Shown piece by piece: positions 2,817 to 31,886 of a stretch of DNA of 64,000 nt. Within the stretch, counting starts at the first letter, position 1. Each line of letters starts with the position of its first letter. Position numbers and translations under genes: made by a program. Under the pieces are notes generated by a model. The model was not told where the DNA came from and ran no database searches. It saw only the letters and a program-made list of their open reading frames with translations. The DNA is from a bacterium (GTDB lineage: Bacteria; Patescibacteriota; Doudnabacteria; UBA920). The stretch lies in assembly GCA_021825655.1 (NCBI GenBank), contig JAKAGU010000003.1:12014-76013 (forward strand), given 5' to 3'.

Positions 2817-3191
2817 ATGTTTCAAAATAACAAACAACAAATTTACGCCATTGCCGGCGCCACTCTGCTTTCCGCTTTTTCGCTGGGCGCAGTGCTAATG
2901 TTTACGGATCCCGGCCAGGCTTCAGCAAGCACTTTTGGCTTTTTTTACCTTAGTGTTTTCCTTTTTGCTTTTGGCACCTTCACTTTGCTGGGCTTAAGCC
3001 TGAGGCGCTGGCTTGCTCCGAAAATGTTTGTCTTAAATTTCTATACCAGCCTGAGGCAGGCGCTGCTGGTCGCCCTCTTGCTGGTTGCAAGCCTCCTGCT
3101 ATTAGGCCAACGGCTGCTCTTCTGGTGGGTTGAATTAAGCCTTGTTCTCCTTTTGCTCTGCATTGAATTTTTCCTTAGCCTCAAATCCTAA
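2817..3191 (+). CDS. small hydrophobic membrane protein (3 predicted TM segments), hypothetical
   Basis: 124 aa ORF, strongly hydrophobic, immediately downstream of the helicase and 26 nt upstream of the next gene. Confidence 0.35.
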   Translation: MFQNNKQQIYAIAGATLLSAFSLGAVLMFTDPGQASASTFGFFYLSVFLFAFGTFTLLGLSLRRWLAPKMFVLNFYTSLRQALLVALLLVASLLLLGQRLLFWWVELSLVLLLLCIEFFLSLKS

Positions 3192-3217: not shown

Positions 3218-4759
3218 ATGGACCCAGAAAAAAATCCACCCCAAACCCAGGAAGACGTGCTGCGGGCGGCGAGCGCAACCCCCGCTGCCAAAAACCTGCA
3301 CGAAGATGAACCGCAGGTTTATAATGTCATGCCGCGGCTATTACACAAAAACAACGTATCCCAGCCCGTCATGGAAGTGGTGGACAACTCTCCAAACTCC
3401 ATCGACGGCCTGCAGTCGGCCTCGCCGGCCGGGGGCGTAAATTTTATAAAAATCCTGAAAATAGCCATACTAACAGTGGCTGTTCTCGGTCTCGGCTATG
3501 CCGGCTACCGTTTCGGGCCCAAATACTACAAACAATTTTTTCTGGCCAGCAAGACTGCGGCTCCGGCTCCGGCCCAGACTGCCGACCAATCCACCCAAAG
3601 CACTCAGGACCAAGTTCAGGCCACCTCTTCCCCTGACCAAAACGCAAACAATTCTGCCTTGCCCTCGGATTGGCTCAAAAAATATTTTGGGGTGGATGTT
3701 TGCGATAAGCCCACGGAATGCGGGCCCGACGCCGATCCGGACCTGGACGGCCTTACCAATCTTGAAGAATATCAGCAGGGGACCGACCCAAACAACGCAG
3801 ACTCCGATGGCGACGGCCTGTCCGATGGCGACGAAGTCCATGTATTTTTGTCAAATCCTTTAAAAAAATACTCGAACAACGATCCCAAATACACGGATGC
3901 GGACTATTTTAAGGGCGGCTATGATTTAACCACAACCCAACTAATGACACCTGATCGGCTTCTGGAAATTAAAACCCGGATGTCGGACAAAGGCTTGCAT
4001 CCGCCTACAATCGCCACTTTAGGGGACGCTCTGCAAAAAATTTATAACTTCGGCAGCCCCCTGGACACTTCGGGCCAGCAGGCCTCAAGCACCCCCAGTT
4101 CCACCCCTGACCAGGCTTTGGACGGTTTTGAAGTGACACCCGCAGCCCAGCAGGATCGCGACGCCCAGCGCACCACCACCATAAAAAATATCGGCATCGG
4201 TTTGATTAAATACTACGATAACAACAAAAGCTACCCCAACACCACTGACTTTAAGGAAATGTACGACGCAATCCGAGTCTTCATGAAAGTGGCCACCAAT
4301 CCGCAAGACCCGGTTAATAAGGCTCCCTACGTTTACACTTATGCGCCAAGTGCGGCCGGAGACGATTTTACACTGGCCTATTACAGCGAGGTTGTCCGGC
4401 AGACAATAAAAAAACACGCGGCAGACGCACAAAAAGACAAAGCCACCGAAGAGGCTGCTATTTACGACGACCAAAGGATCAACGACTTAAAGCGCCTCCA
4501 AACCGCGCTTTTGCTTTACTCTTCCAAACAGGCAGCCGGCAACCAGGATAATGTTTTTCCTTCGGCGGAAAAATACAAGACCGAACTCTTGGTCAGCGGC
4601 GACATTACCGACATACCCACAGATCCCAAAACACACAACGACTACGAATATAAGGTAAACGACACCTTTAACACTTTCACCTTAAAAGCCGTACTCGACA
4701 ATCCGCCAACGGGCTCCACCGGCTACCTGTGCAACCAGCTCAACTGCGATTATTACTAA
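3218..4759 (+). CDS. membrane-anchored surface protein with thrombospondin-type-3-like Ca-binding repeats and two tandem pseudopilin (GspG/PulG)-like domains
   Basis: Single TM segment (FIKILKIAILTVAVLGLGYAG) after a roughly 70 aa N-terminal region, then an STQ-rich linker. DADPDLDGLTNLEEYQQGTDPNNADSDGDGLSDGDE matches DxDxDG repeats. Two repeats follow: RDAQRTTTIKNIGIGLIKYYDNNKSYP ... DPVNKAPYVYTY ... FTLAYY, and RINDLKRLQTALLLYSS ... TDPKTHNDYEYK ... FTLKAV. The protein ends in a Cys pair, CNQLNC. Confidence 0.5.
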   Translation: MDPEKNPPQTQEDVLRAASATPAAKNLHEDEPQVYNVMPRLLHKNNVSQPVMEVVDNSPNSIDGLQSASPAGGVNFIKILKIAILTVAVLGLGYAGYRFGPKYYKQFFLASKTAAPAPAQTADQSTQSTQDQVQATSSPDQNANNSALPSDWLKKYFGVDVCDKPTECGPDADPDLDGLTNLEEYQQGTDPNNADSDGDGLSDGDEVHVFLSNPLKKYSNNDPKYTDADYFKGGYDLTTTQLMTPDRLLEIKTRMSDKGLHPPTIATLGDALQKIYNFGSPLDTSGQQASSTPSSTPDQALDGFEVTPAAQQDRDAQRTTTIKNIGIGLIKYYDNNKSYPNTTDFKEMYDAIRVFMKVATNPQDPVNKAPYVYTYAPSAAGDDFTLAYYSEVVRQTIKKHAADAQKDKATEEAAIYDDQRINDLKRLQTALLLYSSKQAAGNQDNVFPSAEKYKTELLVSGDITDIPTDPKTHNDYEYKVNDTFNTFTLKAVLDNPPTGSTGYLCNQLNCDYY

Positions 4760-4769
4760 TTCTAAGCAA

Positions 4770-5198
4770 ATGACCTTCAACCTTTCCTGGCTAAGGAGGC
4801 TTTTTAAGCCGTCCGCAGCAGCTCAAACAGATTATTCCAACATTATTTGCGCCCGCGTGGTGCAGGCGGACAAACACCCGAACGCTGATCGGCTGCGCGT
4901 GGTAACCGTCGATATCGGCAGCCAAACTATTGCTCCGGTGGTTTGCGGGGCTTTCAATTTTGGACCCGGCGACTTTGTGGTTCTGGCCTTGCCGGGCGCG
5001 AAAATTGCCCAAAACATCCATTCCCAAACCCACGAGCCGTTTATACTGCAAAAAGCCAAAATTCGCGGCATCGAGAGCCAAGGCATGATTTGCGCCGGTT
5101 TTGAACTCGGTTTATCCCAAACACCCGAACCGGGCATACTTCTACTTGGCAAAAACGTGAAGCCGGGTAGCCAATTTTCACCTGAAATGATAAAATAA
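4770..5198 (+). CDS. stand-alone tRNA-binding OB-fold domain protein corresponding to the N-terminus (B1/B2) of PheT
   Basis: MTFNLSWLRRLF ... VQADKHPNADRLRVVTVDIG ... VVCGAFN ... AKIRGIESQGMICAGFELGL aligns with residues 1-150 of bacterial PheT. The ORF then terminates. Confidence 0.7.
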   Translation: MTFNLSWLRRLFKPSAAAQTDYSNIICARVVQADKHPNADRLRVVTVDIGSQTIAPVVCGAFNFGPGDFVVLALPGAKIAQNIHSQTHEPFILQKAKIRGIESQGMICAGFELGLSQTPEPGILLLGKNVKPGSQFSPEMIK

Positions 5199-5228
5199 CG
5201 CCATTAAAGACTAAATTCGGGCTAACAT

Positions 5229-6368
5229 ATGAGTAATATTGTCATTGATACCACGGAAGAAAAGCGCCTTAAACAGGAGCTGGAAAAAAGGACTGATTTT
5301 GAGGCGCAGAGAATTAGGCGATACCTGAGCATGCCGGATCTTTCAAGAACGCCGGGCAGCCCCATTGCGGAAATTGTCAAAAGAATACTTGCCAGCGCCT
5401 ATTTTAAAGACCTGGACACTATCCAAACACCGGAGATTGTCCCGGCAGACATTAGTTTCGATTTATTTGATTTTCCCGCTGATCATCCGGCAAGGAGCAA
5501 ATCCGATACCTACTACGTGGACGACAGTAATATTTTGCGCACCCACACTACCATTATGTGGTATTACTATCTGAAGGATGAGGGCGTCAAAGCACGGATT
5601 GCGGAAAATAAGCCTGTGGGCTGTTTCAGTTTTGGCAAAGTTTACCGCAAGGACGAAATCGACCGCAAGCACATGAACGTCTTCCACCAAATCGACGGCT
5701 GGTACCTGGCCCCCAAGTCGCAAAAAACCATTACCCAGACCGATCTGGAAGAAGCTTTGGGTAACATTGCCAAAGCCGTATTCGGTGAAAATGCCAAATA
5801 CCGCCTCAACAAAGACACTTTCCCGTACACAGACCCGTCCCTGGAGATGGAAGTCGACATAAACGGCAGCTGGGTTGAAGTCGTGGGCTGCGGCGTAGTC
5901 AAAGGCAGTGTCCTGGACAAACTGGGTATTGATTCCAAAAACTACACCGGCTGGGCCTTTGGCTTCGGCTTGGAACGTTTGGCAATCACCAGCATGGAGC
6001 TGCCCGACATCCGCCTGTTGTGGTCAAATGACGAGCGCGTAAAAAAACAGCTGAACCTTGGGCAAAAATTTGTTGAAGTAAGCAAATACCCGCCCATTAC
6101 CCGCGACATTTCTTTTGTTGTCAGCAGCGATTTTGTCCCCAATAACTACTTTGACCTGATCCGTGAAATTGGCGGTGACCTGGTAGAACAGGTGGAGCTG
6201 CTGGACAAGTATGAAAACAAAGAAAAATTCGGCGAGGGCAGGACCAGCTACACTTATCGCGTAATCTACAGGAGCCCTGACCGAACGCTTAAAACCGAGG
6301 AAGTGGAGCCTCTGCAGGCCCGGCTTTACGAAGAAACCAAAAAGCAATACAACGCGGAGTTAAGATAA
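5229..6368 (+). CDS. pheS: phenylalanine--tRNA ligase alpha-type catalytic subunit fused to a C-terminal FDX-ACB anticodon-binding domain (mitochondrial-type architecture)
   Basis: Class II PheS motifs FDFPADHPARSKSDTYYV, ILRTHTT, GKVYRKDEIDRKHMNVFHQIDGW, GWAFGFGLERLA. The C-terminal 90 aa (KYPPITRDISFVVSSDF ... VELLDKYEN ... SYTYRVIYRSPDRTLKTEEV) is FDX-ACB-like. Confidence 0.85.
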   Translation: MSNIVIDTTEEKRLKQELEKRTDFEAQRIRRYLSMPDLSRTPGSPIAEIVKRILASAYFKDLDTIQTPEIVPADISFDLFDFPADHPARSKSDTYYVDDSNILRTHTTIMWYYYLKDEGVKARIAENKPVGCFSFGKVYRKDEIDRKHMNVFHQIDGWYLAPKSQKTITQTDLEEALGNIAKAVFGENAKYRLNKDTFPYTDPSLEMEVDINGSWVEVVGCGVVKGSVLDKLGIDSKNYTGWAFGFGLERLAITSMELPDIRLLWSNDERVKKQLNLGQKFVEVSKYPPITRDISFVVSSDFVPNNYFDLIREIGGDLVEQVELLDKYENKEKFGEGRTSYTYRVIYRSPDRTLKTEEVEPLQARLYEETKKQYNAELR

Positions 6369-6527: not shown

Positions 6528-8597
<2,070 letters not shown>

Positions 8598-8632
8598 AAA
8601 ATATCCGGGTTTTTAGACACAAGAGCAGGGCT

Positions 8633-8661
8633 TTGACATAAAGTTTAAAAAAGCGTAGAAT
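8633..8661 (+). promoter_or_regulatory. sigma70-like promoter upstream of greA
   Basis: TTGACA, 17 nt spacer, TAGAAT. Confidence 0.5.
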
Positions 8662-8694
8662 ACAGCCTAAGCCTCATAAAATAACGGCATAAAA

Positions 8695-9156
8695 ATGTCT
8701 AAAAAATATTTACTGACCCCCGAGGGTTTGGAAAAACTTAACCAGGAGTTAAAGACGCTGGTCAATGACAAACGAAAAGAAGTCATTGAGCGCATTCGCG
8801 AAGCCGCGGCGCACGGCGACCTAAGCGAGAACGCCGATTACGCCCAGGCGCGCGAAGAACAGAGCTTTATCGAAGGCCGCATCCAGGAAATCGAAGACAT
8901 AATCAAGAACGCGGAGATTATCAGCACCGGCAGCCACCGCAATAACGTCTCAGTGGGTTCGACTATTGTGGTAAAAATTAACGGCCAGGAGAGAAAGTAC
9001 ACCATTGTGGGCTCCAACGAAGCCAACCCCAAAGAAGGCAAAATCTCCAATGAATCCCTGGTGGGTAAATCCCTGCTTGGTAAAAAAACTGGAGAAAAGT
9101 TCCAGATAAGCGCCCCGGCCGGAGAAATGAACTACGAAATCATCAGCATTGAATAA
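8695..9156 (+). CDS. greA: transcription elongation factor GreA
   Basis: LLTPEGLEKLNQELKTL ... HGDLSENADYAQAREEQSFIEGRIQEIE, with a C-terminal FKBP-like domain. Confidence 0.85.
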   Translation: MSKKYLLTPEGLEKLNQELKTLVNDKRKEVIERIREAAAHGDLSENADYAQAREEQSFIEGRIQEIEDIIKNAEIISTGSHRNNVSVGSTIVVKINGQERKYTIVGSNEANPKEGKISNESLVGKSLLGKKTGEKFQISAPAGEMNYEIISIE

Positions 9157-9242: not shown

Positions 9243-10703
9243 ATGAGCGAAAGACTTGAAGACATCATCAATGCGCGCAAAAATAAGCTCGAGGCCCTAA
9301 AACAGGCGGGCGTTGACCCGTATCCTTCTGCCTGCGAACGCACTCACACCAATCAAGCGGCCCTGGATTCCTTCGAATCTTTGCAAAATCAGGAAATTAC
9401 CCTGGTCGGGCGGCTAAAGAGTTTCCGGGACATGGGCAAACTCATTTTTGCCCACATGGAAGACGGGACTGCCAAAATTCAGGTGTTATTCAAGTCCGAC
9501 AACTTAGGTGCGGAGGCGTTTAAATCGCTTTTAGATTACGCCGATATCGGCGACTTTATCCAGGTTAGCGGCACGCTTTTTTTGACCAAGACCCAGGAAA
9601 AAACTTTGCAGGCAACGGGCTACAAGCTCTTGGCCAAAAGCCTGTTACCCTTGCCTAGCGAGCACTACGGCCTGCAAGACGAGGAAACACGCTTGCGTCA
9701 GCGATATTTGGATATACTACTTAACCCCGAAACCAAGAAACTGTTCGAAAAAAAGAATTTATTTTGGTCAAAGATGCGGGAATTCCTGGTTAAGAAAGGT
9801 TTCCTAGAGTTGGAAATGCCTATCCTGGAGGCAATTCCAGGCGGAGCCGAAGCGGAGCCATTCGTGACTCACCACAACGCCCTGGATCGTGATTTTTATT
9901 TGCGTATCAGCCTGGAATTGCCTTTGAAAAAAATGCTTGTGGCGGGCTATGAAAAAGTTTTCGAGATTGGCCGGATTTTCCGCAACGAAGGCATTGACAC
10001 CGAACACTTACAGGACTATACGCAGATGGAATTTTACTGGGCCTACAGCGATTTTGAAAAACTTATGGACTTCCTCCAGGAAATGTACCAATACGTTATC
10101 CAGGAAACTTTTGGCACGCTGACTATTGCCAGCCGGGGTATCACCTGCGACTGGAGCGGGGAATGGGAAAAAGTCAGCTACATCAAGCTCTTTCAGGAAC
10201 ACACGGGCATTGACCTGAAACTGGCCAATGATGCCGATTTAAAAAAATATTTGGACGAAAAAAATATTAAATACGAGCCTGCCGCGCACCGCGCCAAGTT
10301 GATTGACACCATCTTTAAAACGGTCAGGTCTGCCATCCCGTCGGGTAAGCCTGTGTTCCTGGTCGACCAGCCGGTCGAACTGGAGCCTTTGGCCAAAAAA
10401 GACCCTAGCGACCCCAAGCTGGTACAGCGTTTGCAGATTGTCGCCTATGGCACAGAGCTGGGCAAGGGGTTTGGCGAACTCAATGACCCCACAGACCAGC
10501 GCGCCCGCTTTGAAGAACAGATGCAACGGCGTGAAGCAGGGGACAAGGAAGCCCAATTTATAGACTTCGATTACCTGGAAGCTATGGAATACGGCATGCC
10601 GCCGGCTGCAGGCTTCGGGGTTTCGCAGCGCTTGTTCGCCTTTTTGACTGACCGGCCCATTAGGGAAACCGTGATTTTCCCACCCATGAAAAAGCAAAAA
10701 TAG
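9243..10703 (+). CDS. lysS: lysine--tRNA ligase (class II)
   Basis: RQRYLDILLNPETKKLF, FLELEMPIL, VFEIGRIFRNEGIDTEHLQDYTQMEFYWAY, GFGVSQRL. Confidence 0.9.
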   Translation: MSERLEDIINARKNKLEALKQAGVDPYPSACERTHTNQAALDSFESLQNQEITLVGRLKSFRDMGKLIFAHMEDGTAKIQVLFKSDNLGAEAFKSLLDYADIGDFIQVSGTLFLTKTQEKTLQATGYKLLAKSLLPLPSEHYGLQDEETRLRQRYLDILLNPETKKLFEKKNLFWSKMREFLVKKGFLELEMPILEAIPGGAEAEPFVTHHNALDRDFYLRISLELPLKKMLVAGYEKVFEIGRIFRNEGIDTEHLQDYTQMEFYWAYSDFEKLMDFLQEMYQYVIQETFGTLTIASRGITCDWSGEWEKVSYIKLFQEHTGIDLKLANDADLKKYLDEKNIKYEPAAHRAKLIDTIFKTVRSAIPSGKPVFLVDQPVELEPLAKKDPSDPKLVQRLQIVAYGTELGKGFGELNDPTDQRARFEEQMQRREAGDKEAQFIDFDYLEAMEYGMPPAAGFGVSQRLFAFLTDRPIRETVIFPPMKKQK

Positions 10704-11354: not shown

Positions 11355-11795
11355 TTGCTTATTTTTATGAATAAAGGCCCAATCCCCATTGCAGTAGCCG
11401 CAATCCGGGACAAACAAGGCCGGCTGCTTTTAGCCAAAAGGCGGGATAAAAAATTCAAAGAAGCAAACGGCCTTTGGGAACTGCCTGGCGGACATGTGGA
11501 ATTCAAAGAAGATGCAGCCAAGGCAGTGGTGAGGGAATGCCTGGAAGAAACCGGGCTTAAAGTCAAGATTCTCCGTTTGCTGCCCAAGCTTTACAATAAT
11601 TTTTGGCGCGACGCGAAAGGGGATCACTACCACACCATACTTGTTGCTTATGAATGTCTTGCTGTCGGCGGAAAACTTCACGACAGCAAACACGACTACA
11701 AAATCAGCGACCTGCGCTGGGTCTGGCCTGACGAAATCATTAAATATAAACTGTTGCCAAAGACAAAAGAAATTGTGGCTCTACTTAACACTTAA
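11355..11795 (+). CDS. NUDIX hydrolase
   Basis: Nudix box GGHVEFKEDAAKAVVRECLEETGLKV. Confidence 0.7.
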   Translation: MLIFMNKGPIPIAVAAIRDKQGRLLLAKRRDKKFKEANGLWELPGGHVEFKEDAAKAVVRECLEETGLKVKILRLLPKLYNNFWRDAKGDHYHTILVAYECLAVGGKLHDSKHDYKISDLRWVWPDEIIKYKLLPKTKEIVALLNT

Positions 11796-11805
11796 CAAGA
11801 CTTCC

Positions 11806-13149
11806 ATGCTCGATATTAAATTTATTCGCGAAAATGCCGACAAGGTAAAAAAAGCGGTCCAGGATAAAAACATCAACCTCGATGTGGACCAACTGCTTGA
11901 TTTAGACGCACAGCGGCGCGCTTTAACCACGGAAAGCGAAAGCCTGCAGGCAACCAAAAACCAGGTATCAAAAGAAATCCCGAAGCTCTCCGCAGAAGAC
12001 AAAAAAATCAAATTGCTGGAAATGAAAGAGGTGGACCTGAGAGCGAATGAACTCAAGGAGAAACTGCGTGCTGTACTGGTCAAATACGAAGAACTGATGT
12101 ATTTAGTACCGAACATTCCCAGCCCGGAAACCCCAATCGGCAAAGACGACAGCGGCAATGTGCCCTGGAGCTACTGGTCGCCGGCTTTGGGCCATGTCGA
12201 CCCCAAGGAAACGGAGAAAGTAAAGAGTATCCCCACCAAATTTGACTTTGAAGTTAAAGACCATATGACTCTGGCCAAAGCCCTCGACCTTCTGGACACA
12301 GAAGCGGGTGTAAAAACCGCGGGCTTTCGCGGATATTACCTGAAAAACGAGGCTGTGCTCATGCACTACGGCATTCTTTGGCATGCGCTGAAAAAAATGC
12401 AGGAAAAAGGTTTTGCCCTTATGGCTCCACCGGTACTAGGCCGGTCGTTTGCCTTTTACGGCAGCGGGCATTTTCCGTTCGGCCGCGCCGACCAGTACCA
12501 AGTAATGACCGAGGAAGATTTGCAAAAAGGGATTACGGAACCCGTTTACCTTTCCGGCACATCCGAACCCAACCTGCTTGCGTACGTTGCTGACAAAACT
12601 TTCGAAGAATCGGAGCTGCCGGTAAAGATGTGCGGCATTTCCAGCTGCTTTAGGGGAGAAATCGGGAGCTACGGCAAAGACACGAAGGGCATATATCGCG
12701 TGCATGAATTCATGAAAGTTGAGCAGGTAATCGTCTGCAAAGCCGACGTAATTGAAGGCGACAAGTGGCTGGAAGCTTTGCGCGAAATCGCCCAAGAAAT
12801 GCTGATGGACTTAAAATTGCCCCACCGCGTACTCAACATCTGCACGGGCGATATGGGCGCGGGCAAATATAAAATGTACGACATTGAAACCTGGATGCCT
12901 TCCAGGCAAAACTACGGGGAGACCCACTCCGATTCCAACCTGACCGACTGGCAGGCGCGGCGTTTGAACATCAAATACAAGGGCAGTGACGGCAAAACCA
13001 AGTTCGCCTACACCCTCAACAATACGGTTATTGCCAGCCCCCGCATCCTCATTGCCATTCTGGAGAACTACCAGCAAAAAGACGGCAGCATTTTAGTCCC
13101 TGACATTCTGAAACCTTACATAGGCAAGGACGTAATTTTGGCAAAATAG
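11806..13149 (+). CDS. serS: serine--tRNA ligase
   Basis: MLDIKFIRENADKVKKAVQDK, N-terminal coiled coil, class II core FRGEIGSYGKDTKGIYRVHEF, TLNNTVIASPRILIAILENYQ. Start moved to ATG 11806 because the track ORF extension overlaps the NUDIX gene. Confidence 0.9.
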   Translation: MLDIKFIRENADKVKKAVQDKNINLDVDQLLDLDAQRRALTTESESLQATKNQVSKEIPKLSAEDKKIKLLEMKEVDLRANELKEKLRAVLVKYEELMYLVPNIPSPETPIGKDDSGNVPWSYWSPALGHVDPKETEKVKSIPTKFDFEVKDHMTLAKALDLLDTEAGVKTAGFRGYYLKNEAVLMHYGILWHALKKMQEKGFALMAPPVLGRSFAFYGSGHFPFGRADQYQVMTEEDLQKGITEPVYLSGTSEPNLLAYVADKTFEESELPVKMCGISSCFRGEIGSYGKDTKGIYRVHEFMKVEQVIVCKADVIEGDKWLEALREIAQEMLMDLKLPHRVLNICTGDMGAGKYKMYDIETWMPSRQNYGETHSDSNLTDWQARRLNIKYKGSDGKTKFAYTLNNTVIASPRILIAILENYQQKDGSILVPDILKPYIGKDVILAK

Positions 13150-24013: not shown

Positions 24014-25435
24014 CTAAAGACTGATTTTCCGCTTGATTTTCTGGCCTTCGGGGGTATCAAGCACCTCATAACCCAGCTCTTCAATCTGCTTCCTTAGCTC
24101 GTCGGACTTGGCAAAATCTTTTTTTTGCCTGGCGTGCTCGCGGGCCTGTTTCAATTTTTCAACATCTTCAGTCAAAACCAAGGTGTCCTTTATGTTTTTT
24201 ACCTCCTCGAGCCTCAAGCCAAAAATTCTATCAAACTGCATCAATAAATCAAATTTTTGCGAACCACTGATTTCTGAACCCAACATCTCCCAAGCGACTG
24301 CCAAAGCCTGTGTGATGTTTAAATCATCGCTAATTGCATTGGCAAACTTTATACCAAACTCGGTAGCTCTGGTTGCGCTTGTATCCAAAGTTACAATTTT
24401 ATTACCAACCAACAGCTCTTTAGCTTTTAATGTCAAATTATATCTGGCATTTTTAGCTGCATGCAAACCCTCCCAAGTAAAATTCAATTGCGTTCGATAA
24501 TGAGCCTGCAGGCACATATAGCGGTAATCGAGAGGGGAAAAGCCTTTTTCTTTCAGAGTATCCAAAGTAATAAAATTACCCTCGCTCTTGCCCATGCGCC
24601 CGCTGTCCACCAGCAAAAATTCGCCGTGCATCCACATATTGGCCAAAGGCAGGCCGAACGCGGCTTCGGACTGGGCGATTTCATTGGTGTGGTGCGTGCC
24701 AATATGGTCCACGCCGCCGCAGTGAATATCGAAAGGCTGGCCTAAAATTTTCCGGGAGATGGCGGAGCATTCAATGTGCCAACCGGGAAAACCTTCGCCC
24801 CAGGGCGACGCCCAGTGCAAAATATGGTTTTCGTATTTGCCTTTCAGAAAAAACCACAAGGCAAAATCCGCGGGATGTTTTTTGTCCGGGTCCAGCACCA
24901 CTTCCTCCCGCGCGCCGCTCTTTTTTTCCGAAAGTTTTTGCCCCGAAAGCTTGCCATAATCCGCCAGCTTAGAGGTATCAAAATAAATAGCCTTCTCGCC
25001 TATGTAGGTAAAACCCTTTTGTTCCAAAGTTTTAATTATTTCCACCTGTTCGGGGATAGCCTGGGTGGCAGGCAGGACAGTATCGGGCCTAAGGATGTTT
25101 AACGCGTCCGTGTCCTGAAAAAACTTTTCCTTATAAAACTTGGCAATGTCCAAAGGGTTTTTGCCTTCGCGTTTGGCGCCCACTTCCAGCTTATCTTCGC
25201 CTTCATCGCCATCGCCAACCAAGTGTCCAACATCCGTAATGTTCATGGCATGCTTAACCTGAAAACCTTCGTAAAGCAAGGCGCGCTTCAGCAAGTCTTC
25301 AAAAATATAGGTTCGCAAATTGCCAATGTGGGCGTAGTTGTAAACCGTGGGCCCGCAGGTATAAAGGTTCACGTGGCCTGGGTTGATGGGTTTAAGCTCT
25401 TCAGTTTTCTTGGTTAAGGTGTTGTATAGTTTCAT
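24014..25435 (-). CDS. cysS: cysteine--tRNA ligase
   Basis: CGPTVYNYAHIGNLRTY (HIGH region), GRMGKSEGN (KMSKS), CGGVDHIGTHHTNEIAQSEA. Confidence 0.9.
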   Translation of the reverse strand: MKLYNTLTKKTEELKPINPGHVNLYTCGPTVYNYAHIGNLRTYIFEDLLKRALLYEGFQVKHAMNITDVGHLVGDGDEGEDKLEVGAKREGKNPLDIAKFYKEKFFQDTDALNILRPDTVLPATQAIPEQVEIIKTLEQKGFTYIGEKAIYFDTSKLADYGKLSGQKLSEKKSGAREEVVLDPDKKHPADFALWFFLKGKYENHILHWASPWGEGFPGWHIECSAISRKILGQPFDIHCGGVDHIGTHHTNEIAQSEAAFGLPLANMWMHGEFLLVDSGRMGKSEGNFITLDTLKEKGFSPLDYRYMCLQAHYRTQLNFTWEGLHAAKNARYNLTLKAKELLVGNKIVTLDTSATRATEFGIKFANAISDDLNITQALAVAWEMLGSEISGSQKFDLLMQFDRIFGLRLEEVKNIKDTLVLTEDVEKLKQAREHARQKKDFAKSDELRKQIEELGYEVLDTPEGQKIKRKISL

Positions 25436-30086: not shown

Positions 30087-31886
30087 TTATTTTTTTTCTA
30101 TAACTTGCTTTTGCAATTTTTCTGCAAAAGCTTCCAGGCTCATTTGCCCCAAGTCTTCGCCTTCGCGGGTACGCACGCTAAGCATTCCGGCATCCGCTTC
30201 CTTTTGGCCTAAAATAATCTGATAGGGAATTTTTTGCATGGTGGCTTCGCGGATTTTTTTTCCAATCGACTCGTCTCGGGCATCCACTTCCATGCGCAAG
30301 CTTGCGTTAACAGCCAGGAGTCTGTCTTTTATTTCTCCGGCAAAAGCTGCCTGGTTTTCCGAAATCGGCAAAATACTGACTTGGACAGGCGAAAGCCATA
30401 ACGGAAAGGCTCCTGCATAGTGTTCAATCAGGATGGCCAAAAACCTTTCAAAAGAACCCAGCAAAGCGCGGTGGATGACAATCGGCGTTTTACGGCTGCT
30501 GTCGGGCGCCACGTATTCCAAACCGAAACGCTGGGGCATCTGGAAATCCAGCTGGATAGTCGCCAGCTGCCATTTCCTGCCCAAGGCATCCCGAATGCGC
30601 ATGTCGATTTTTGGCCCGTAAAATGCGCCGTCTCCGGCGTTAATCTCGTACTGCCAGCCCGCTTTTTTCAAAGCTTCCGCCAGCGCCGCTTCCGCCGTAT
30701 CCCATTCCTCTTTGGTGCCTAAAGATTTTTCAGGTTTGGTGGAAAGGGCCACGTCTTCCACCCGCATGTCAAAGACCGCATAGATTTTCTGAATGCGCGA
30801 CAATAACTCCGCTACCTCGTCCGCTACCTGTTCCGGGGCCAGGAAAATATGGCAGTCATCCTGGGCAAAAGCCCTTACCCGAGTCAGGCCGGACAGGGTG
30901 CCGGAAAGTTCGTTTCGGTAAAGTGTGGACATTTCCGCGTACCGCAAGGGCAAGTCCCGGTAAGAATACAAGCCCTGCTTAAACAGCAGCATATGGCCCG
31001 GACAGTTCATGGGCTTTAGGCCAAAAGTGCGGCCTTCGCTCTCCAGGGTAAACATATCGTCCTTGTAGTGTTCCCAGTGACCGGAAGTTTTGAACAGCTC
31101 CGAATCGAAAAGCTGCGGCAAGCGCACTTCGCTGTAACCCGGGCCATAAGAAACGGAGCGGACAAATTTTTCCAGTTCGTTTCTGACAATGCTGCCTTTG
31201 GGTAAATAGAAGGGAATCCCTGGGGCGTACTCATGGAACATAAACAAGTCAAGCTTGGGCCCCAAACTTCTGTGGTCGCGTTTTTCGGCTTCTTCCACCA
31301 TTTTTAAGTAGGCTTCCAGCTCTTCTTTGCTTTCAAAAGCCAACCCGTATATGCGCTGCATTTGCGGATTTTTCTGGTCGCCGCGCCAATAGGCGCCGGA
31401 GAACCTGTCAAGCTTAAACGCATCGGCCTTAATCTCCGAAGTGCTCTCCACGTGCCCGCCCCGGCATAAATCCACAAACTTGCCGGTTTTATACAAAGAT
31501 ACGCTTTCCACTTTTTTCTCCGCAGCCCCAGGCTTGCCGGCTTGGCCTTCTATTTGGTCCATTTCCGTGGTGCCGAATTTTTCAATATCCTCAATCAGCT
31601 CCACTTTGAAAGTCTGTTTTGCATTCCTAAAAAAATCCTTGGCCTCGCCAGTGGACATTTCCTGGCGCTCAAACGGCAGTTTCTGCCTGACCAGTTCGCG
31701 CATGCGCTTTTCAATCTTTTTCAAATCTTCCGGGGTAATGGGGCGGGGGAGAAGAAAGTCATAGTAAAAACCGTTCTCAATGACCGGACCAACGCCCAAG
31801 TTTGCCTGCGGGAACATTTCCACGACAGCGGAGGCCAGAATGTGGGCCAAAGAATGGCGGATGTGGTGCAGTTTTTCGTTTTCCAT
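30087..31886 (-). CDS. thrS: threonine--tRNA ligase
   Basis: HIRHSLAHILA, class II core, FERFLAILIEHYAGAFPLWLSPVQV, anticodon-binding C-terminus. Confidence 0.9.
   Translation of the reverse strand: MENEKLHHIRHSLAHILASAVVEMFPQANLGVGPVIENGFYYDFLLPRPITPEDLKKIEKRMRELVRQKLPFERQEMSTGEAKDFFRNAKQTFKVELIEDIEKFGTTEMDQIEGQAGKPGAAEKKVESVSLYKTGKFVDLCRGGHVESTSEIKADAFKLDRFSGAYWRGDQKNPQMQRIYGLAFESKEELEAYLKMVEEAEKRDHRSLGPKLDLFMFHEYAPGIPFYLPKGSIVRNELEKFVRSVSYGPGYSEVRLPQLFDSELFKTSGHWEHYKDDMFTLESEGRTFGLKPMNCPGHMLLFKQGLYSYRDLPLRYAEMSTLYRNELSGTLSGLTRVRAFAQDDCHIFLAPEQVADEVAELLSRIQKIYAVFDMRVEDVALSTKPEKSLGTKEEWDTAEAALAEALKKAGWQYEINAGDGAFYGPKIDMRIRDALGRKWQLATIQLDFQMPQRFGLEYVAPDSSRKTPIVIHRALLGSFERFLAILIEHYAGAFPLWLSPVQVSILPISENQAAFAGEIKDRLLAVNASLRMEVDARDESIGKKIREATMQKIPYQIILGQKEADAGMLSVRTREGEDLGQMSLEAFAEKLQKQVIEKK

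What the first reader, a model, noticed from the sequence alone, without database searches (positions are those of the whole stretch)
4770..6368. Minimal, split phenylalanyl-tRNA synthetase: free PheT N-terminal tRNA-binding domain followed by a PheS-FDX-ACB fusion
The 142 aa ORF at 4770..5198 aligns over its full length with the N-terminal OB-fold tRNA-binding domain of bacterial PheT (HPNADRLRVVTVDIG, VVCGAFN, AKIRGIESQGMICAGFELGL) and then stops. The following gene is a PheS catalytic core (FPADHPAR, LRTHTT, GFGLERL) without the usual N-terminal coiled coil. Its C-terminus carries a clear FDX-ACB domain (KYPPITRDISFVV...VELLDKYEN...YRVIYRSPDRTLKTEEV), which in bacteria is normally the last domain of PheT. 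None of the other PheT domains (B3/B4 editing, B5, B6/7) is encoded here. The gene order is also inverted relative to the canonical pheS-pheT operon. Catalytic core plus FDX-ACB is the architecture of the monomeric mitochondrial PheRS. Pairing it with a trans-acting PheT-derived tRNA-binding module would be an unusual bacterial solution and implies loss of tRNA-Phe editing.
Basis: partly seen in the sequence, partly recalled or inferred. Interest (0 to 1): 0.7.

Follow-up and report, generated by a model that had tools for sequence, protein, structure and literature searches.

The report
Mitochondria-style single-chain PheRS in CPR bacteria
This ultra-small (Patescibacteria/CPR) bacterium charges tRNA-Phe with a compact one-chain enzyme of the type known from mitochondria instead of the usual four-subunit bacterial enzyme. 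In this lineage the enzyme is partnered with, and occasionally fused to, a small tRNA-binding protein.

Summary
ORF 4770..5198 (142 aa) is a tRNA_bind OB-fold of the PheT-B2/YtpR type. ORF 5229..6368 (379 aa) is a PheRS class II core fused to an FDX-ACB anticodon-binding domain. No other PheT domain lies in about 79 kb of this contig.

The enzyme is not a decayed pheST operon. It belongs to a monophyletic family found in at least 219 GTDB species (Doudnabacteria, Nomura-, Yanofsky-, Kaiser-, Zambryskibacteria). It is as well or better conserved than the adjacent GyrB. All PheRS active-site motifs are intact, unlike in the SrmL "mystery ligase". Its closest match in sequence and predicted fold is human mitochondrial PheRS.

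Published single-copy-gene tables give exactly one PheS-type gene in six near-complete genomes that carry it, so it is probably the only PheRS. This is indirect evidence.

The tRNA-binding gene is lineage-specific. It sits immediately upstream in 22 of 80 species loci, all with Doudnabacteria-type synteny, and is fused in frame in at least three lineages. I read it as an accessory tRNA-affinity module.

No paper describing this was found. NCBI calls the protein "hypothetical". It is a new bacterial variant of a known enzyme kind.

The parts
4770..5198 (+). Gene for a free-standing 142-aa OB-fold tRNA-binding protein ('TB') of the PheT-B2/YtpR type
   Evidence: Pfam tRNA_bind E 8e-18. NCBIfam pheT_bact residues 42-151 at 104 bits, YtpR at 86 bits, both below cutoff. 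PDB best matches are 3BU2 (YtpR-like) and PheT B2 domains. The database search returned 710 proteins; the 120 listed are all free-standing, 128-173 aa. It lies upstream of the PheRS gene in 22 of 80 GTDB loci.
4770..4829 (+). N-terminal ~20-residue amphipathic extension of TB (pattern like LNFLKKLF). Possible docking helix; this is inference.
   Evidence: The extension is semi-conserved among free-standing orthologues. It is missing in the three fused proteins and in L070.
4845..5171 (+). tRNA_bind OB-fold domain proper (residues 26-134), with a family-specific 8-residue His-rich insert (QNIHSQTHEPF)
   Evidence: Pfam coordinates. The insert shows as a gap in the alignment to 3BU2 and is conserved across orthologues.
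5199..5228 (+). 30-nt spacer between TB and the PheRS gene. The two genes are probably co-transcribed.
   Evidence: Sequence. No promoter or terminator signal above chance. The gap is -8 to 221 nt in the other species, with one case of 664 nt. The spacer is replaced by an in-frame linker in the fusions.
5229..6368 (+). Gene for a 379-aa single-chain PheRS (class II core plus FDX-ACB), mitochondrial-type architecture
5229..5357 (+). Short N-terminal helical region (residues 1-43). It replaces the long coiled coil of canonical PheS.
   Evidence: No PF02912 hit. AlphaFold predicts helices at residues 9-19 and 24-34. The motif RxDxEAxRxxRxLxxPDLxR is conserved across the family, including members without TB.
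5358..6050 (+). PheRS catalytic core (residues 44-274) with motifs 1, 2 and 3
   Evidence: Pfam PF01409 E 1e-55. The motifs HPAR, LRTHTT, VYRKDEIDRKHMNVFHQIDG, FPYTDPSLE and GWAFGFGLERLA are almost entirely invariant or nearly invariant among 43 family members. They match E. coli PheS and mitochondrial PheRS but not SrmL.
6081..6365 (+). C-terminal FDX-ACB anticodon-binding domain (residues 285-379). In canonical enzymes this is domain B8 of PheT.
   Evidence: Pfam PF03147 E 3.5e-24. It aligns to pheT_bact model positions 691-798 and to human mtPheRS through the junction.

Best explanation
The 379-aa gene encodes the housekeeping phenylalanyl-tRNA synthetase of this Doudnabacteria-like CPR bacterium, and probably its only one.

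**Proposed mechanism (inferred).** The enzyme works as a single chain, like mitochondrial PheRS.
- The class II core activates Phe with ATP and transfers it to tRNA-Phe.
- The fused FDX-ACB domain reads the GAA anticodon.
- By analogy with human mtPheRS (closed 3CMQ, open tRNA-bound 3TUP), the anticodon-binding domain swings away from the core when tRNA binds.
- There is no B3/B4 editing domain. Discrimination against Tyr would therefore rest on the active site, or on an unidentified trans factor.

**The partner protein.** The upstream 142-aa OB-fold protein is a lineage-specific accessory. It binds tRNA non-specifically and raises the enzyme's affinity for tRNA. It acts in trans in this genome and in cis in the natural fusions. 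This is functionally analogous to Arc1p, to Trbp111, or to the C-terminal domain of MetRS.

**Shown here:** domain composition, motif conservation, family distribution, synteny, the fusions, and the single-copy evidence.

**Inferred:** catalytic activity, monomeric state, hinge motion, the role of TB, and its docking through the N-terminal helix.
For: - **Domains:**
- **Nearest relatives:** human mtPheRS is the best sequence match at 204 bits, against about 125 bits for bacterial PheS. The AlphaFold model (pLDDT 87.9) superposes on closed mtPheRS over its full length, TM 0.74-0.76.
- **Active site:** the active-site and motif residues are almost all invariant or nearly invariant in the family. 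They are identical in kind to those of E. coli PheS and mtPheRS, whereas SrmL differs at motif 1, at the FPxTxPS segment and at motif 3.
- **Distribution:** the family is present in at least 219 GTDB species and is monophyletic at 99.5% bootstrap.
- **Conservation and context:** identity is at least as high as for neighbouring GyrB in most loci (65-77% against 54-60% in Paceibacteria). The gene sits in a conserved housekeeping context next to gyrB.
- **Copy number:** there is exactly one 'Phenylalanyl tRNA synthetase alpha' gene in six 91-98% complete genomes shown to carry this gene, and in 3 of 3 Doudnabacteria rows seen (PMC5079060 Supplementary Data 4).
- **No canonical genes nearby:** none in about 79 kb of this contig, nor in the flanks of 80 related loci.
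- **TB link:** TB lies immediately upstream on the same strand in 22 species loci. In-frame TB-PheRS fusions P0038, P0073 and P0086 exist. P0038 and P0073 were checked and lie in the same synteny, and P0038 is identical in two independent assemblies.
Against: - No whole genome could be scanned. Absence of canonical pheS/pheT rests on an annotation-based count in a published table, which has no PheRS-beta column.
- The protein scores below the curated cutoff of every NCBIfam PheRS model: pheS_mito 238 against 258, pheS 165 against 237.
- Its top NCBIfam hit is the function-unknown SrmL model (250 against a cutoff of 300).
- TB is absent within 6 kb of the gene in 58 of 80 species loci, including close relatives with 77-80% identical PheRS. 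It is therefore not required by the enzyme as such.
- The B2 domain of canonical PheT is dispensable for aminoacylation (Roy and Ibba 2006, as cited in PMC5370408).
- The AlphaFold model of a fusion gave no confident placement of TB.
- No tRNA-Phe gene was seen in the window or in the 60 related loci scanned for tRNAs.
Confidence: 0.75

Rival explanations
1. The PheRS works alone. TB is a general-purpose tRNA-binding or chaperone protein of the Trbp111/YtpR/CsaA type that merely shares an operon with it in one lineage.
For: TB scores almost as well against YtpR as against PheT. Most species with the enzyme have no TB gene nearby. Mitochondrial PheRS needs no such partner. Free or otherwise-fused B2-like domains occur with TyrRS and LysRS in other CPR bacteria (PMC5370408; the TapR model).
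Against: TB always lies immediately upstream of this one gene in 22 species loci, even where the PheRS subtype differs. At least three independent in-frame fusions to this enzyme exist. All 120 listed TB homologues are free-standing, and none is fused to another protein.
Confidence: 0.25
2. The gene is an accessory paralogue with a non-canonical role, like the SrmL 'PheS-related mystery ligase'. A canonical (alpha-beta)2 PheRS encoded elsewhere does the housekeeping.
For: SrmL is the top NCBIfam hit (250 bits). NCBI annotates family members as hypothetical proteins. The whole genome could not be inspected.
Against: The score is below the SrmL cutoff of 300. True SrmL proteins form a separate clade with 100% bootstrap. 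They differ at diagnostic active-site positions where this family keeps the PheRS residues. Only one PheS-type gene is counted per genome in six carriers. Conservation exceeds that of GyrB in most loci.
Confidence: 0.1
3. The locus is a decayed or rearranged remnant of a pheS-pheT operon and is non-functional or on its way out.
For: It contains only pieces of PheT (B2-like and B8), in inverted order.
Against: Both ORFs are intact and conserved across hundreds of species under strong constraint. The fused core plus FDX-ACB architecture is shared with the mitochondrial, viral and SrmL lineages, so it is ancient.
Confidence: 0.02

Closest known systems
Mitochondrial (and plastid) monomeric PheRS: human FARS2, yeast MSF1, TIGR00469, 'PheRS-M' of AARS Online, PDB 3CMQ and 3TUP
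   Same: Same two-domain architecture, with a PheS-type core directly fused to an FDX-ACB domain. No editing domain and no long N-terminal coiled coil. It is the best match in sequence (about 47% identity over residues 168-369, including the junction PDIRLxWSxDER) and in predicted fold.
   Different: This is a separate, bacterial, monophyletic lineage. The mitochondrial-type plus viral clade is separated from it at 91.5% bootstrap. It lacks the roughly 35-residue insertion of the human enzyme, which shows as two alignment stretches. It has a distinct conserved N-terminal helical segment. It scores just below the TIGR00469 cutoff, 238 against 258. In this lineage it is paired or fused with an OB-fold protein, which mitochondrial enzymes lack.
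Canonical bacterial (alpha-beta)2 PheRS: PheS TIGR00468 plus PheT TIGR00472, PDB 1PYS and 3PCO
   Same: Same catalytic motifs and Phe-pocket residues. The FDX-ACB domain corresponds to B8 of PheT, and TB resembles B2 of PheT.
   Different: About 520 residues in total, against about 1,120 per alpha-beta pair. There are no B1, B3/B4 (editing), B5 or B6/7 domains and no alpha coiled coil. The anticodon-binding domain sits on the catalytic chain. Both curated cutoffs are missed by a wide margin (165 against 237; 104 against 403).
SrmL, 'PheS-related mystery ligase' (NCBIfam NF051887)
   Same: A bacterial protein of about 350-415 aa. The model aligns across both the core and the FDX-ACB region of this protein, and it is the highest-scoring NCBIfam model for it.
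   Different: SrmL forms a distinct clade. It has altered motif 1 (NPGR or NEGR instead of HPAR), HPYTxxG instead of FPYTDPS, and GLALGMG instead of GWAFGFG. The window protein is below its cutoff, 250 against 300.
Stand-alone or appended tRNA_bind OB-fold proteins: Trbp111, CsaA, YtpR (PDB 3BU2), Arc1p/EMAPII, the MetRS C-terminal domain, TapR (NF045867), and B2-TyrRS fusions in CPR bacteria (PMC5370408)
   Same: TB has the same OB-fold with the HPNADxL and GxxSxGM motifs. It is a small free-standing protein genetically attached to one synthetase, as TapR is to TyrS and Arc1p is to MetRS and GluRS.
   Different: TB is partnered with a monomeric PheRS. It carries a family-specific N-terminal amphipathic segment and an 8-residue His-rich insert. 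It is below the cutoffs of YtpR (86 against 100) and TapR (41 against 120).

Membership tests
Mitochondrial-type monomeric PheRS (TIGR00469 / PheRS-M) | PheS-type class II core with PheRS motifs 1-3 and Phe-pocket residues | tested here: met
   Pfam PF01409 E 1e-55. The motifs are almost entirely invariant or nearly invariant and match mtPheRS and E. coli PheS.
Mitochondrial-type monomeric PheRS (TIGR00469 / PheRS-M) | FDX-ACB anticodon-binding domain fused to the C-terminus of the catalytic chain | tested here: met
   Pfam PF03147 E 3.5e-24, residues 285-379. The predicted fold superposes on 3CMQ over its full length.
Mitochondrial-type monomeric PheRS (TIGR00469 / PheRS-M) | Score at or above the curated equivalog cutoff (258.35 bits) | tested here: not met
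   238 bits. The more distant family member P0121 passes with 264 bits.
Mitochondrial-type monomeric PheRS (TIGR00469 / PheRS-M) | Placement inside the mitochondrial clade in a phylogeny | tested here: not met
   In a bootstrapped neighbour-joining tree the CPR family is its own clade (99.5%), and the mitochondrial-type plus viral clade is separate (91.5%). The tree is rough, with a single canonical outgroup.
Mitochondrial-type monomeric PheRS (TIGR00469 / PheRS-M) | Active as a monomer, charges tRNA-Phe, no beta subunit or editing | not testable with these tools
   Only indirect evidence is available: one PheS-type gene per genome in six carriers, and no B3_4 or B5 domains in any sequence examined.
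Canonical bacterial PheS (TIGR00468) | Curated cutoff of 237.45 bits and an N-terminal coiled-coil domain (PF02912) | tested here: not met
   165.5 bits. No PF02912 hit.
Canonical bacterial PheT (TIGR00472), for the 142-aa ORF | Full-length beta subunit with B1-B8 domains; cutoff 402.65 bits | tested here: not met
   104 bits, covering only model positions 42-151.
SrmL, PheS-related mystery ligase (NF051887) | Curated cutoff of 300 bits and SrmL-type active-site residues | tested here: not met
   250 bits. It lies in a separate clade and has different motif residues.
tRNA_bind OB-fold (PF01588), for the 142-aa ORF | Pfam gathering score of 27 bits | tested here: met
   64.7 bits, near full-length match.
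YtpR (NF045760) and TapR (NF045867), for the 142-aa ORF | Curated cutoffs of 100 and 120 bits | tested here: not met
   86 and 41 bits. Only the C-terminal OB-fold part of those models is matched.

The most novel reading that the evidence does not exclude
Single-chain PheRS is not an invention of eukaryotic organelles. It is an old prokaryotic and viral lineage: the sole PheRS of a large part of the CPR radiation, present in some other bacteria, and carried by huge phages and giant viruses. On this reading the mitochondrial enzyme was acquired from that pool rather than assembled from the alpha-proteobacterial alpha and beta subunits. In Doudnabacteria the enzyme has in addition recruited an OB-fold subunit, giving a previously undescribed two-component (sometimes fused three-domain) PheRS.
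Probability: 0.3. Interest if true: 0.8.

Novelty: new variant of a known kind. Interest (0 to 1): 0.66.

Why it matters
Textbooks state that PheRS is an (alpha-beta)2 heterotetramer everywhere except in organelles. A large bacterial clade that uses a 380-residue single chain, apparently as its only PheRS, breaks that rule.

- **Genome minimisation.** It shows another way CPR bacteria shrink their genomes, saving about 2 kb and dropping Phe/Tyr editing.
- **Annotation and completeness.** pheT and pheS are commonly used phylogenomic marker genes (the bac120 set, from my own knowledge, not checked here). NCBI labels the enzyme "hypothetical", while IMG labels the OB-fold protein "beta chain".
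- **Origin of the mitochondrial enzyme.** It provides bacterial and viral relatives against which that origin can now be tested.
- **Practical use.** It offers a small, possibly orthogonal PheRS scaffold, with a natural trans or cis tRNA-binding module whose contribution can be measured directly.

Tried and rejected
- **Literature.** All ten full-text searches and a check of the Parcubacteria genome paper found no description of a bacterial or CPR monomeric PheRS.
- **Whole-genome test for pheT.** This was not possible. I could only extend the view of the contig to about 62.6-141.3 kb and screen about 0.9 Mb of flanks of related loci with E. coli PheT and PheS. Nothing was found. I could not obtain a CPR PheT sequence to use as a query, so the third large protein search was left unused.
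- **AlphaFold of a natural fusion (P0038).** The TB domain came out at pLDDT below 50, because only three sequences cover it. It gives no information on domain placement.
- **IMG/VR scans with exact peptides** from the window protein or from P0277 found nothing. Only the alignment-based scan worked.
- **Regulatory signals.** The promoter and terminator scan was at chance level. Rfam found only the four tRNAs, with no T-box or leader.
- **tRNA-Phe gene near the locus.** None in the window or in the 60 related loci scanned.
- **infC-rpmI-rplT next to thrS** as a landmark for a lost pheST operon: not present in the window.
- **Degenerate TB remnants** in loci that lack the gene: none by tblastn at E below 10.
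- **Decayed-duplicate reading.** Rejected on conservation and phylogeny.
Full report
**What is in the sequence**

The window is part of contig DAIENE010000001.1 (181 kb) of assembly GCA_027341245.1, a Patescibacteria (CPR) metagenome-assembled genome with Doudnabacteria-like relatives.

ORF 4770..5198 (+) encodes 142 aa. ORF 5229..6368 (+) encodes 379 aa.

- Pfam places the small protein in tRNA_bind (PF01588, E 8e-18).
- Pfam places the large one in tRNA-synt_2d (E 1e-55, residues 44-274) plus FDX-ACB (E 3.5e-24, residues 285-379). There is no PheS N-terminal coiled-coil domain.
- NCBIfam aligns the small protein to positions 42-151 of the PheT model, the B2 domain, at 104 bits. YtpR scores almost as well at 86 bits.
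- The large protein scores 250 bits against SrmL ('PheS-related mystery ligase'), 238 against pheS_mito and 165 against pheS. All are below the curated cutoffs.

No B3/B4, B5 or B6/7 domain occurs anywhere I could look:
- the ten largest remaining window ORFs scanned with Pfam;
- a phmmer screen with E. coli PheT and PheS of all six-frame ORFs of the window;
- about 5 kb upstream and 10 kb downstream of the window.

The four genes hyp124, hyp513, TB and PheRS are packed with gaps of 10-30 nt. There is no promoter, terminator, T-box or leader signal above chance.

**The enzyme belongs to a large, constrained family**

A search of 5.8 billion proteins gave more than 6,500 hits. The top 120 are all 78-100% identical, and nearly all are about 380 aa (345-506 aa, including the three fusions). 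All carry the PheS core plus FDX-ACB, the three fusions with tRNA_bind in addition. They come from Patescibacteria. NCBI names them 'hypothetical protein', IMG 'PheRS alpha chain' and UniProt 'phenylalanine--tRNA ligase'.

A scan of one genome per GTDB species found 219 loci. The best 80 include Doudna-, Nomura-, Yanofsky-, Zambryski- and Kaiserbacteria and Paceibacteria. A partial Gracilibacteria relative (203 aa, about 50% identical) also exists.

Across these loci the protein is 64-98% identical to the window copy. In the Paceibacteria it is 65-77% identical, while the adjacent GyrB is only 54-60% identical. In most loci it is therefore at least as constrained as a core replication protein. 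The gene is next to gyrB in most loci.

The catalytic motifs are almost entirely invariant or nearly invariant among 43 members. They are HPAR, LRTHTT, VYRKDEIDRKHMNVFHQIDG, FPYTDPSLE and GWAFGFGLERLA. They match E. coli PheS and mitochondrial PheRS position for position. True SrmL proteins differ at motif 1, at the FPxTxPS segment and at motif 3.

This rules out a decayed pheST remnant and argues against an SrmL-like paralogue.

**Relationship to known enzymes**

- In the PDB the best sequence match is human mitochondrial PheRS at 204 bits. Identity is about 47% over residues 168-369, running through the core/FDX-ACB junction. Bacterial PheS scores about 125 bits.
- The AlphaFold model (pLDDT 87.9, pTM 0.77) superposes over its full length on closed-state human mtPheRS (3CMQ, 8P8X; TM 0.74-0.76). 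It fits the open tRNA-bound state 3TUP less well (TM 0.57). Bacterial PheS matches only the core.
- At 50% clustering the family collapses to a few representatives. Its nearest neighbours are other bacterial single-chain forms (an Oligoflexia protein and unnamed metagenome proteins), SrmL and the mitochondrial-type clade.
- In a bootstrapped neighbour-joining tree the CPR family is monophyletic (99.5%). The mitochondrial-type plus viral clade is separate (91.5%). CPR groups with the other bacterial forms (73.5%).

This tree is rough. It uses one canonical outgroup and a distance method. It shows that the CPR enzyme is neither a recent import from eukaryotes nor a member of the mitochondrial clade.

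**Is it the only PheRS?**

I could not scan a whole genome. The best available test uses the single-copy-gene table of Anantharaman et al. 2016 (PMC5079060, Supplementary Data 4).

The column 'Phenylalanyl tRNA synthetase alpha' reads 1, not 2, for all six genomes of that study in which the GTDB scan found this gene:
- Yanofskybacteria RIFCSPHIGHO2_02_FULL_43_17
- Yanofskybacteria RIFCSPHIGHO2_01_FULL_43_32
- Yanofskybacteria RIFCSPHIGHO2_01_FULL_44_22
- Yanofskybacteria RIFCSPLOWO2_01_FULL_49_17
- Yanofskybacteria RIFOXYD1_FULL_42_10
- Nomurabacteria RIFCSPHIGHO2_01_FULL_41_71

These genomes are 90.7-97.7% complete. The column also reads 1 in the three Doudnabacteria rows I saw.

Other annotation pipelines label this protein a PheRS alpha chain. 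The single count is therefore most simply this gene, which leaves no canonical PheS and hence no canonical enzyme.

There are caveats. The count is annotation-based, and the table has no beta-subunit column. I put the probability that this is the sole PheRS at about 0.8.

**The tRNA-binding partner**

The small protein (TB) has the OB-fold signature HPNADRL...VCGAFNF...IRGIESQGMIC. Its closest solved relatives are a YtpR-like protein (3BU2) and PheT B2 domains, at nearly equal scores.

It has 710 database relatives. The 120 listed are all free-standing, 128-173 aa. IMG calls them 'PheRS beta chain'.

Among the 80 GTDB loci it lies immediately upstream of the PheRS gene, on the same strand, in 22. 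The gap ranges from -8 to 221 nt, with one case of 664 nt. All 22 have the Doudnabacteria-type synteny UvrD, hyp124, hyp513, TB, PheRS, GyrB, GreA, class IIb aaRS. It is absent within 6 kb in the other 58, with no degenerate remnant.

Three proteins (P0038, P0073, P0086; about 505 aa) are in-frame TB-PheRS fusions. P0038 and P0073 were checked and lie in the same synteny. P0038 is identical in two independent assemblies, so the fusion is not a sequencing artefact.

Free-standing TBs carry a semi-conserved N-terminal amphipathic segment of about 20 residues, which the fusions lack. All carry a His-rich 8-residue insert not found in PheT-B2 or YtpR.

Mukai et al. 2017 noted that B2 is missing from many CPR PheRS-beta proteins and is fused to some CPR TyrRS and LysRS proteins (PMC5370408). 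B2-like modules are evidently mobile accessories in this radiation.

**Mechanism proposed**

Inferred by homology:
- The core makes Phe-AMP and transfers Phe to tRNA-Phe.
- The fused FDX-ACB domain recognises the GAA anticodon.
- The enzyme opens by a hinge motion on tRNA binding, as in mtPheRS.
- There is no editing.

Inferred from gene order and fusion:
- TB binds tRNA and raises the affinity of the minimal enzyme, in trans here and in cis in the fusions.
- The N-terminal helix of TB may dock it to the enzyme. This is speculation.

Most family members lack a nearby TB gene, so the enzyme is probably competent alone.

**Novelty**

No paper in the searchable library describes a bacterial or CPR single-chain PheRS. 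All ten full-text searches gave nothing relevant, and a check of the Parcubacteria genome paper found nothing. Databases disagree on the name.

Monomeric PheRS itself is well known from mitochondria. I therefore file this as a new bacterial variant of a known kind, with an added OB-fold partner that is new for PheRS.

**Side finding**

A cluster of short (about 348 aa) PheRS proteins whose representative passes the TIGR00469 cutoff includes P0277. That protein sits on a 340-kb phage-like contig. Related PheRS genes occur on 44 IMG/VR contigs, many of 200-540 kb, some labelled giant-virus MAGs.

This widens the pool from which the mitochondrial enzyme might derive and motivates the 'novel case'.

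Noticed in passing
L091 (ERZ19027398 scaffold_19, 340,874 bp) 8001-9047; L093-L136 (IMG/VR): A short (about 348 aa) single-chain PheRS, whose cluster representative passes the TIGR00469 cutoff, lies on a 340-kb contig with phage-like gene content (SNF2 helicase, PhageMetallopep, PcfJ, many small unknown ORFs). An alignment-based scan then found 44 viral contigs that encode related PheRS genes (38-50% identical). Many are 200-540 kb, one is 1.47 Mb, and several are GVMAG giant-virus bins.
   Followed up: partly
L063, L069, L070, L077, L082 (GTDB loci): These genomes have the same Doudnabacteria-type synteny and a GyrB 78-89% identical to the window's. Their PheRS is only 64-67% identical, and in the first tree one of them (L077) branches at the base of the main CPR cluster. 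This points to a second, divergent PheRS subtype, or a replacement, within close relatives. The TB gene is still upstream.
   Followed up: partly
window 4770-4829 and 5000-5035 (TB residues 1-20 and about 78-89): Free-standing TB proteins share an N-terminal amphipathic segment (pattern like LNFLKKLF) that is absent from the fusions. They also share a conserved His-rich insert (QNIHSxTHEPF) not present in PheT-B2 or YtpR. The function of both is unknown.
   Followed up: partly
window 2817-3191 and 3218-4759 (+): Two conserved genes of unknown function, a 124-aa hydrophobic protein and a 513-aa protein with a faint TSP3_bac hit, sit directly upstream of TB with gaps of 10-26 nt. They keep this position in all Doudnabacteria-type loci, at 40-56% identity in most of them (96-97% in L006).
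   Followed up: no
window 9243-10703, 11641-13149, 24014-25435, 30087-31886; L090 6279-7796: The neighbourhood is unusually rich in aminoacyl-tRNA synthetase genes: a class IIb (Lys/Asp/Asn-type) enzyme, SerRS, CysRS and ThrRS in the window, and a GluRS-type gene just downstream of it.
   Followed up: no
L022, L031, L044, L045, L057, L061, L062, L066, L073, L081, L083: In many Paceibacteria loci the PheRS gene lies downstream of a divergent pair of tRNA-Met genes, often with a tRNA-Asp gene nearby, instead of TB. No tRNA-Phe gene was found in the window or in any of the 60 loci scanned for tRNAs.
   Followed up: no
PMC5079060 Supplementary Data 4, Doudnabacteria rows: All three Doudnabacteria genomes seen in the single-copy-gene table have two histidyl-tRNA synthetase genes and one of most other markers.
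   Followed up: no
P0124 (MBX7144632.1, Oligoflexia bacterium); P0123, P0130, P0404, P0405: Single-chain PheRS-like proteins of 400-456 aa also occur outside CPR, for example in an Oligoflexia MAG. They are below both the SrmL and pheS_mito cutoffs and group with the CPR family in the tree. Whether they coexist with a canonical PheRS is unknown.
   Followed up: no
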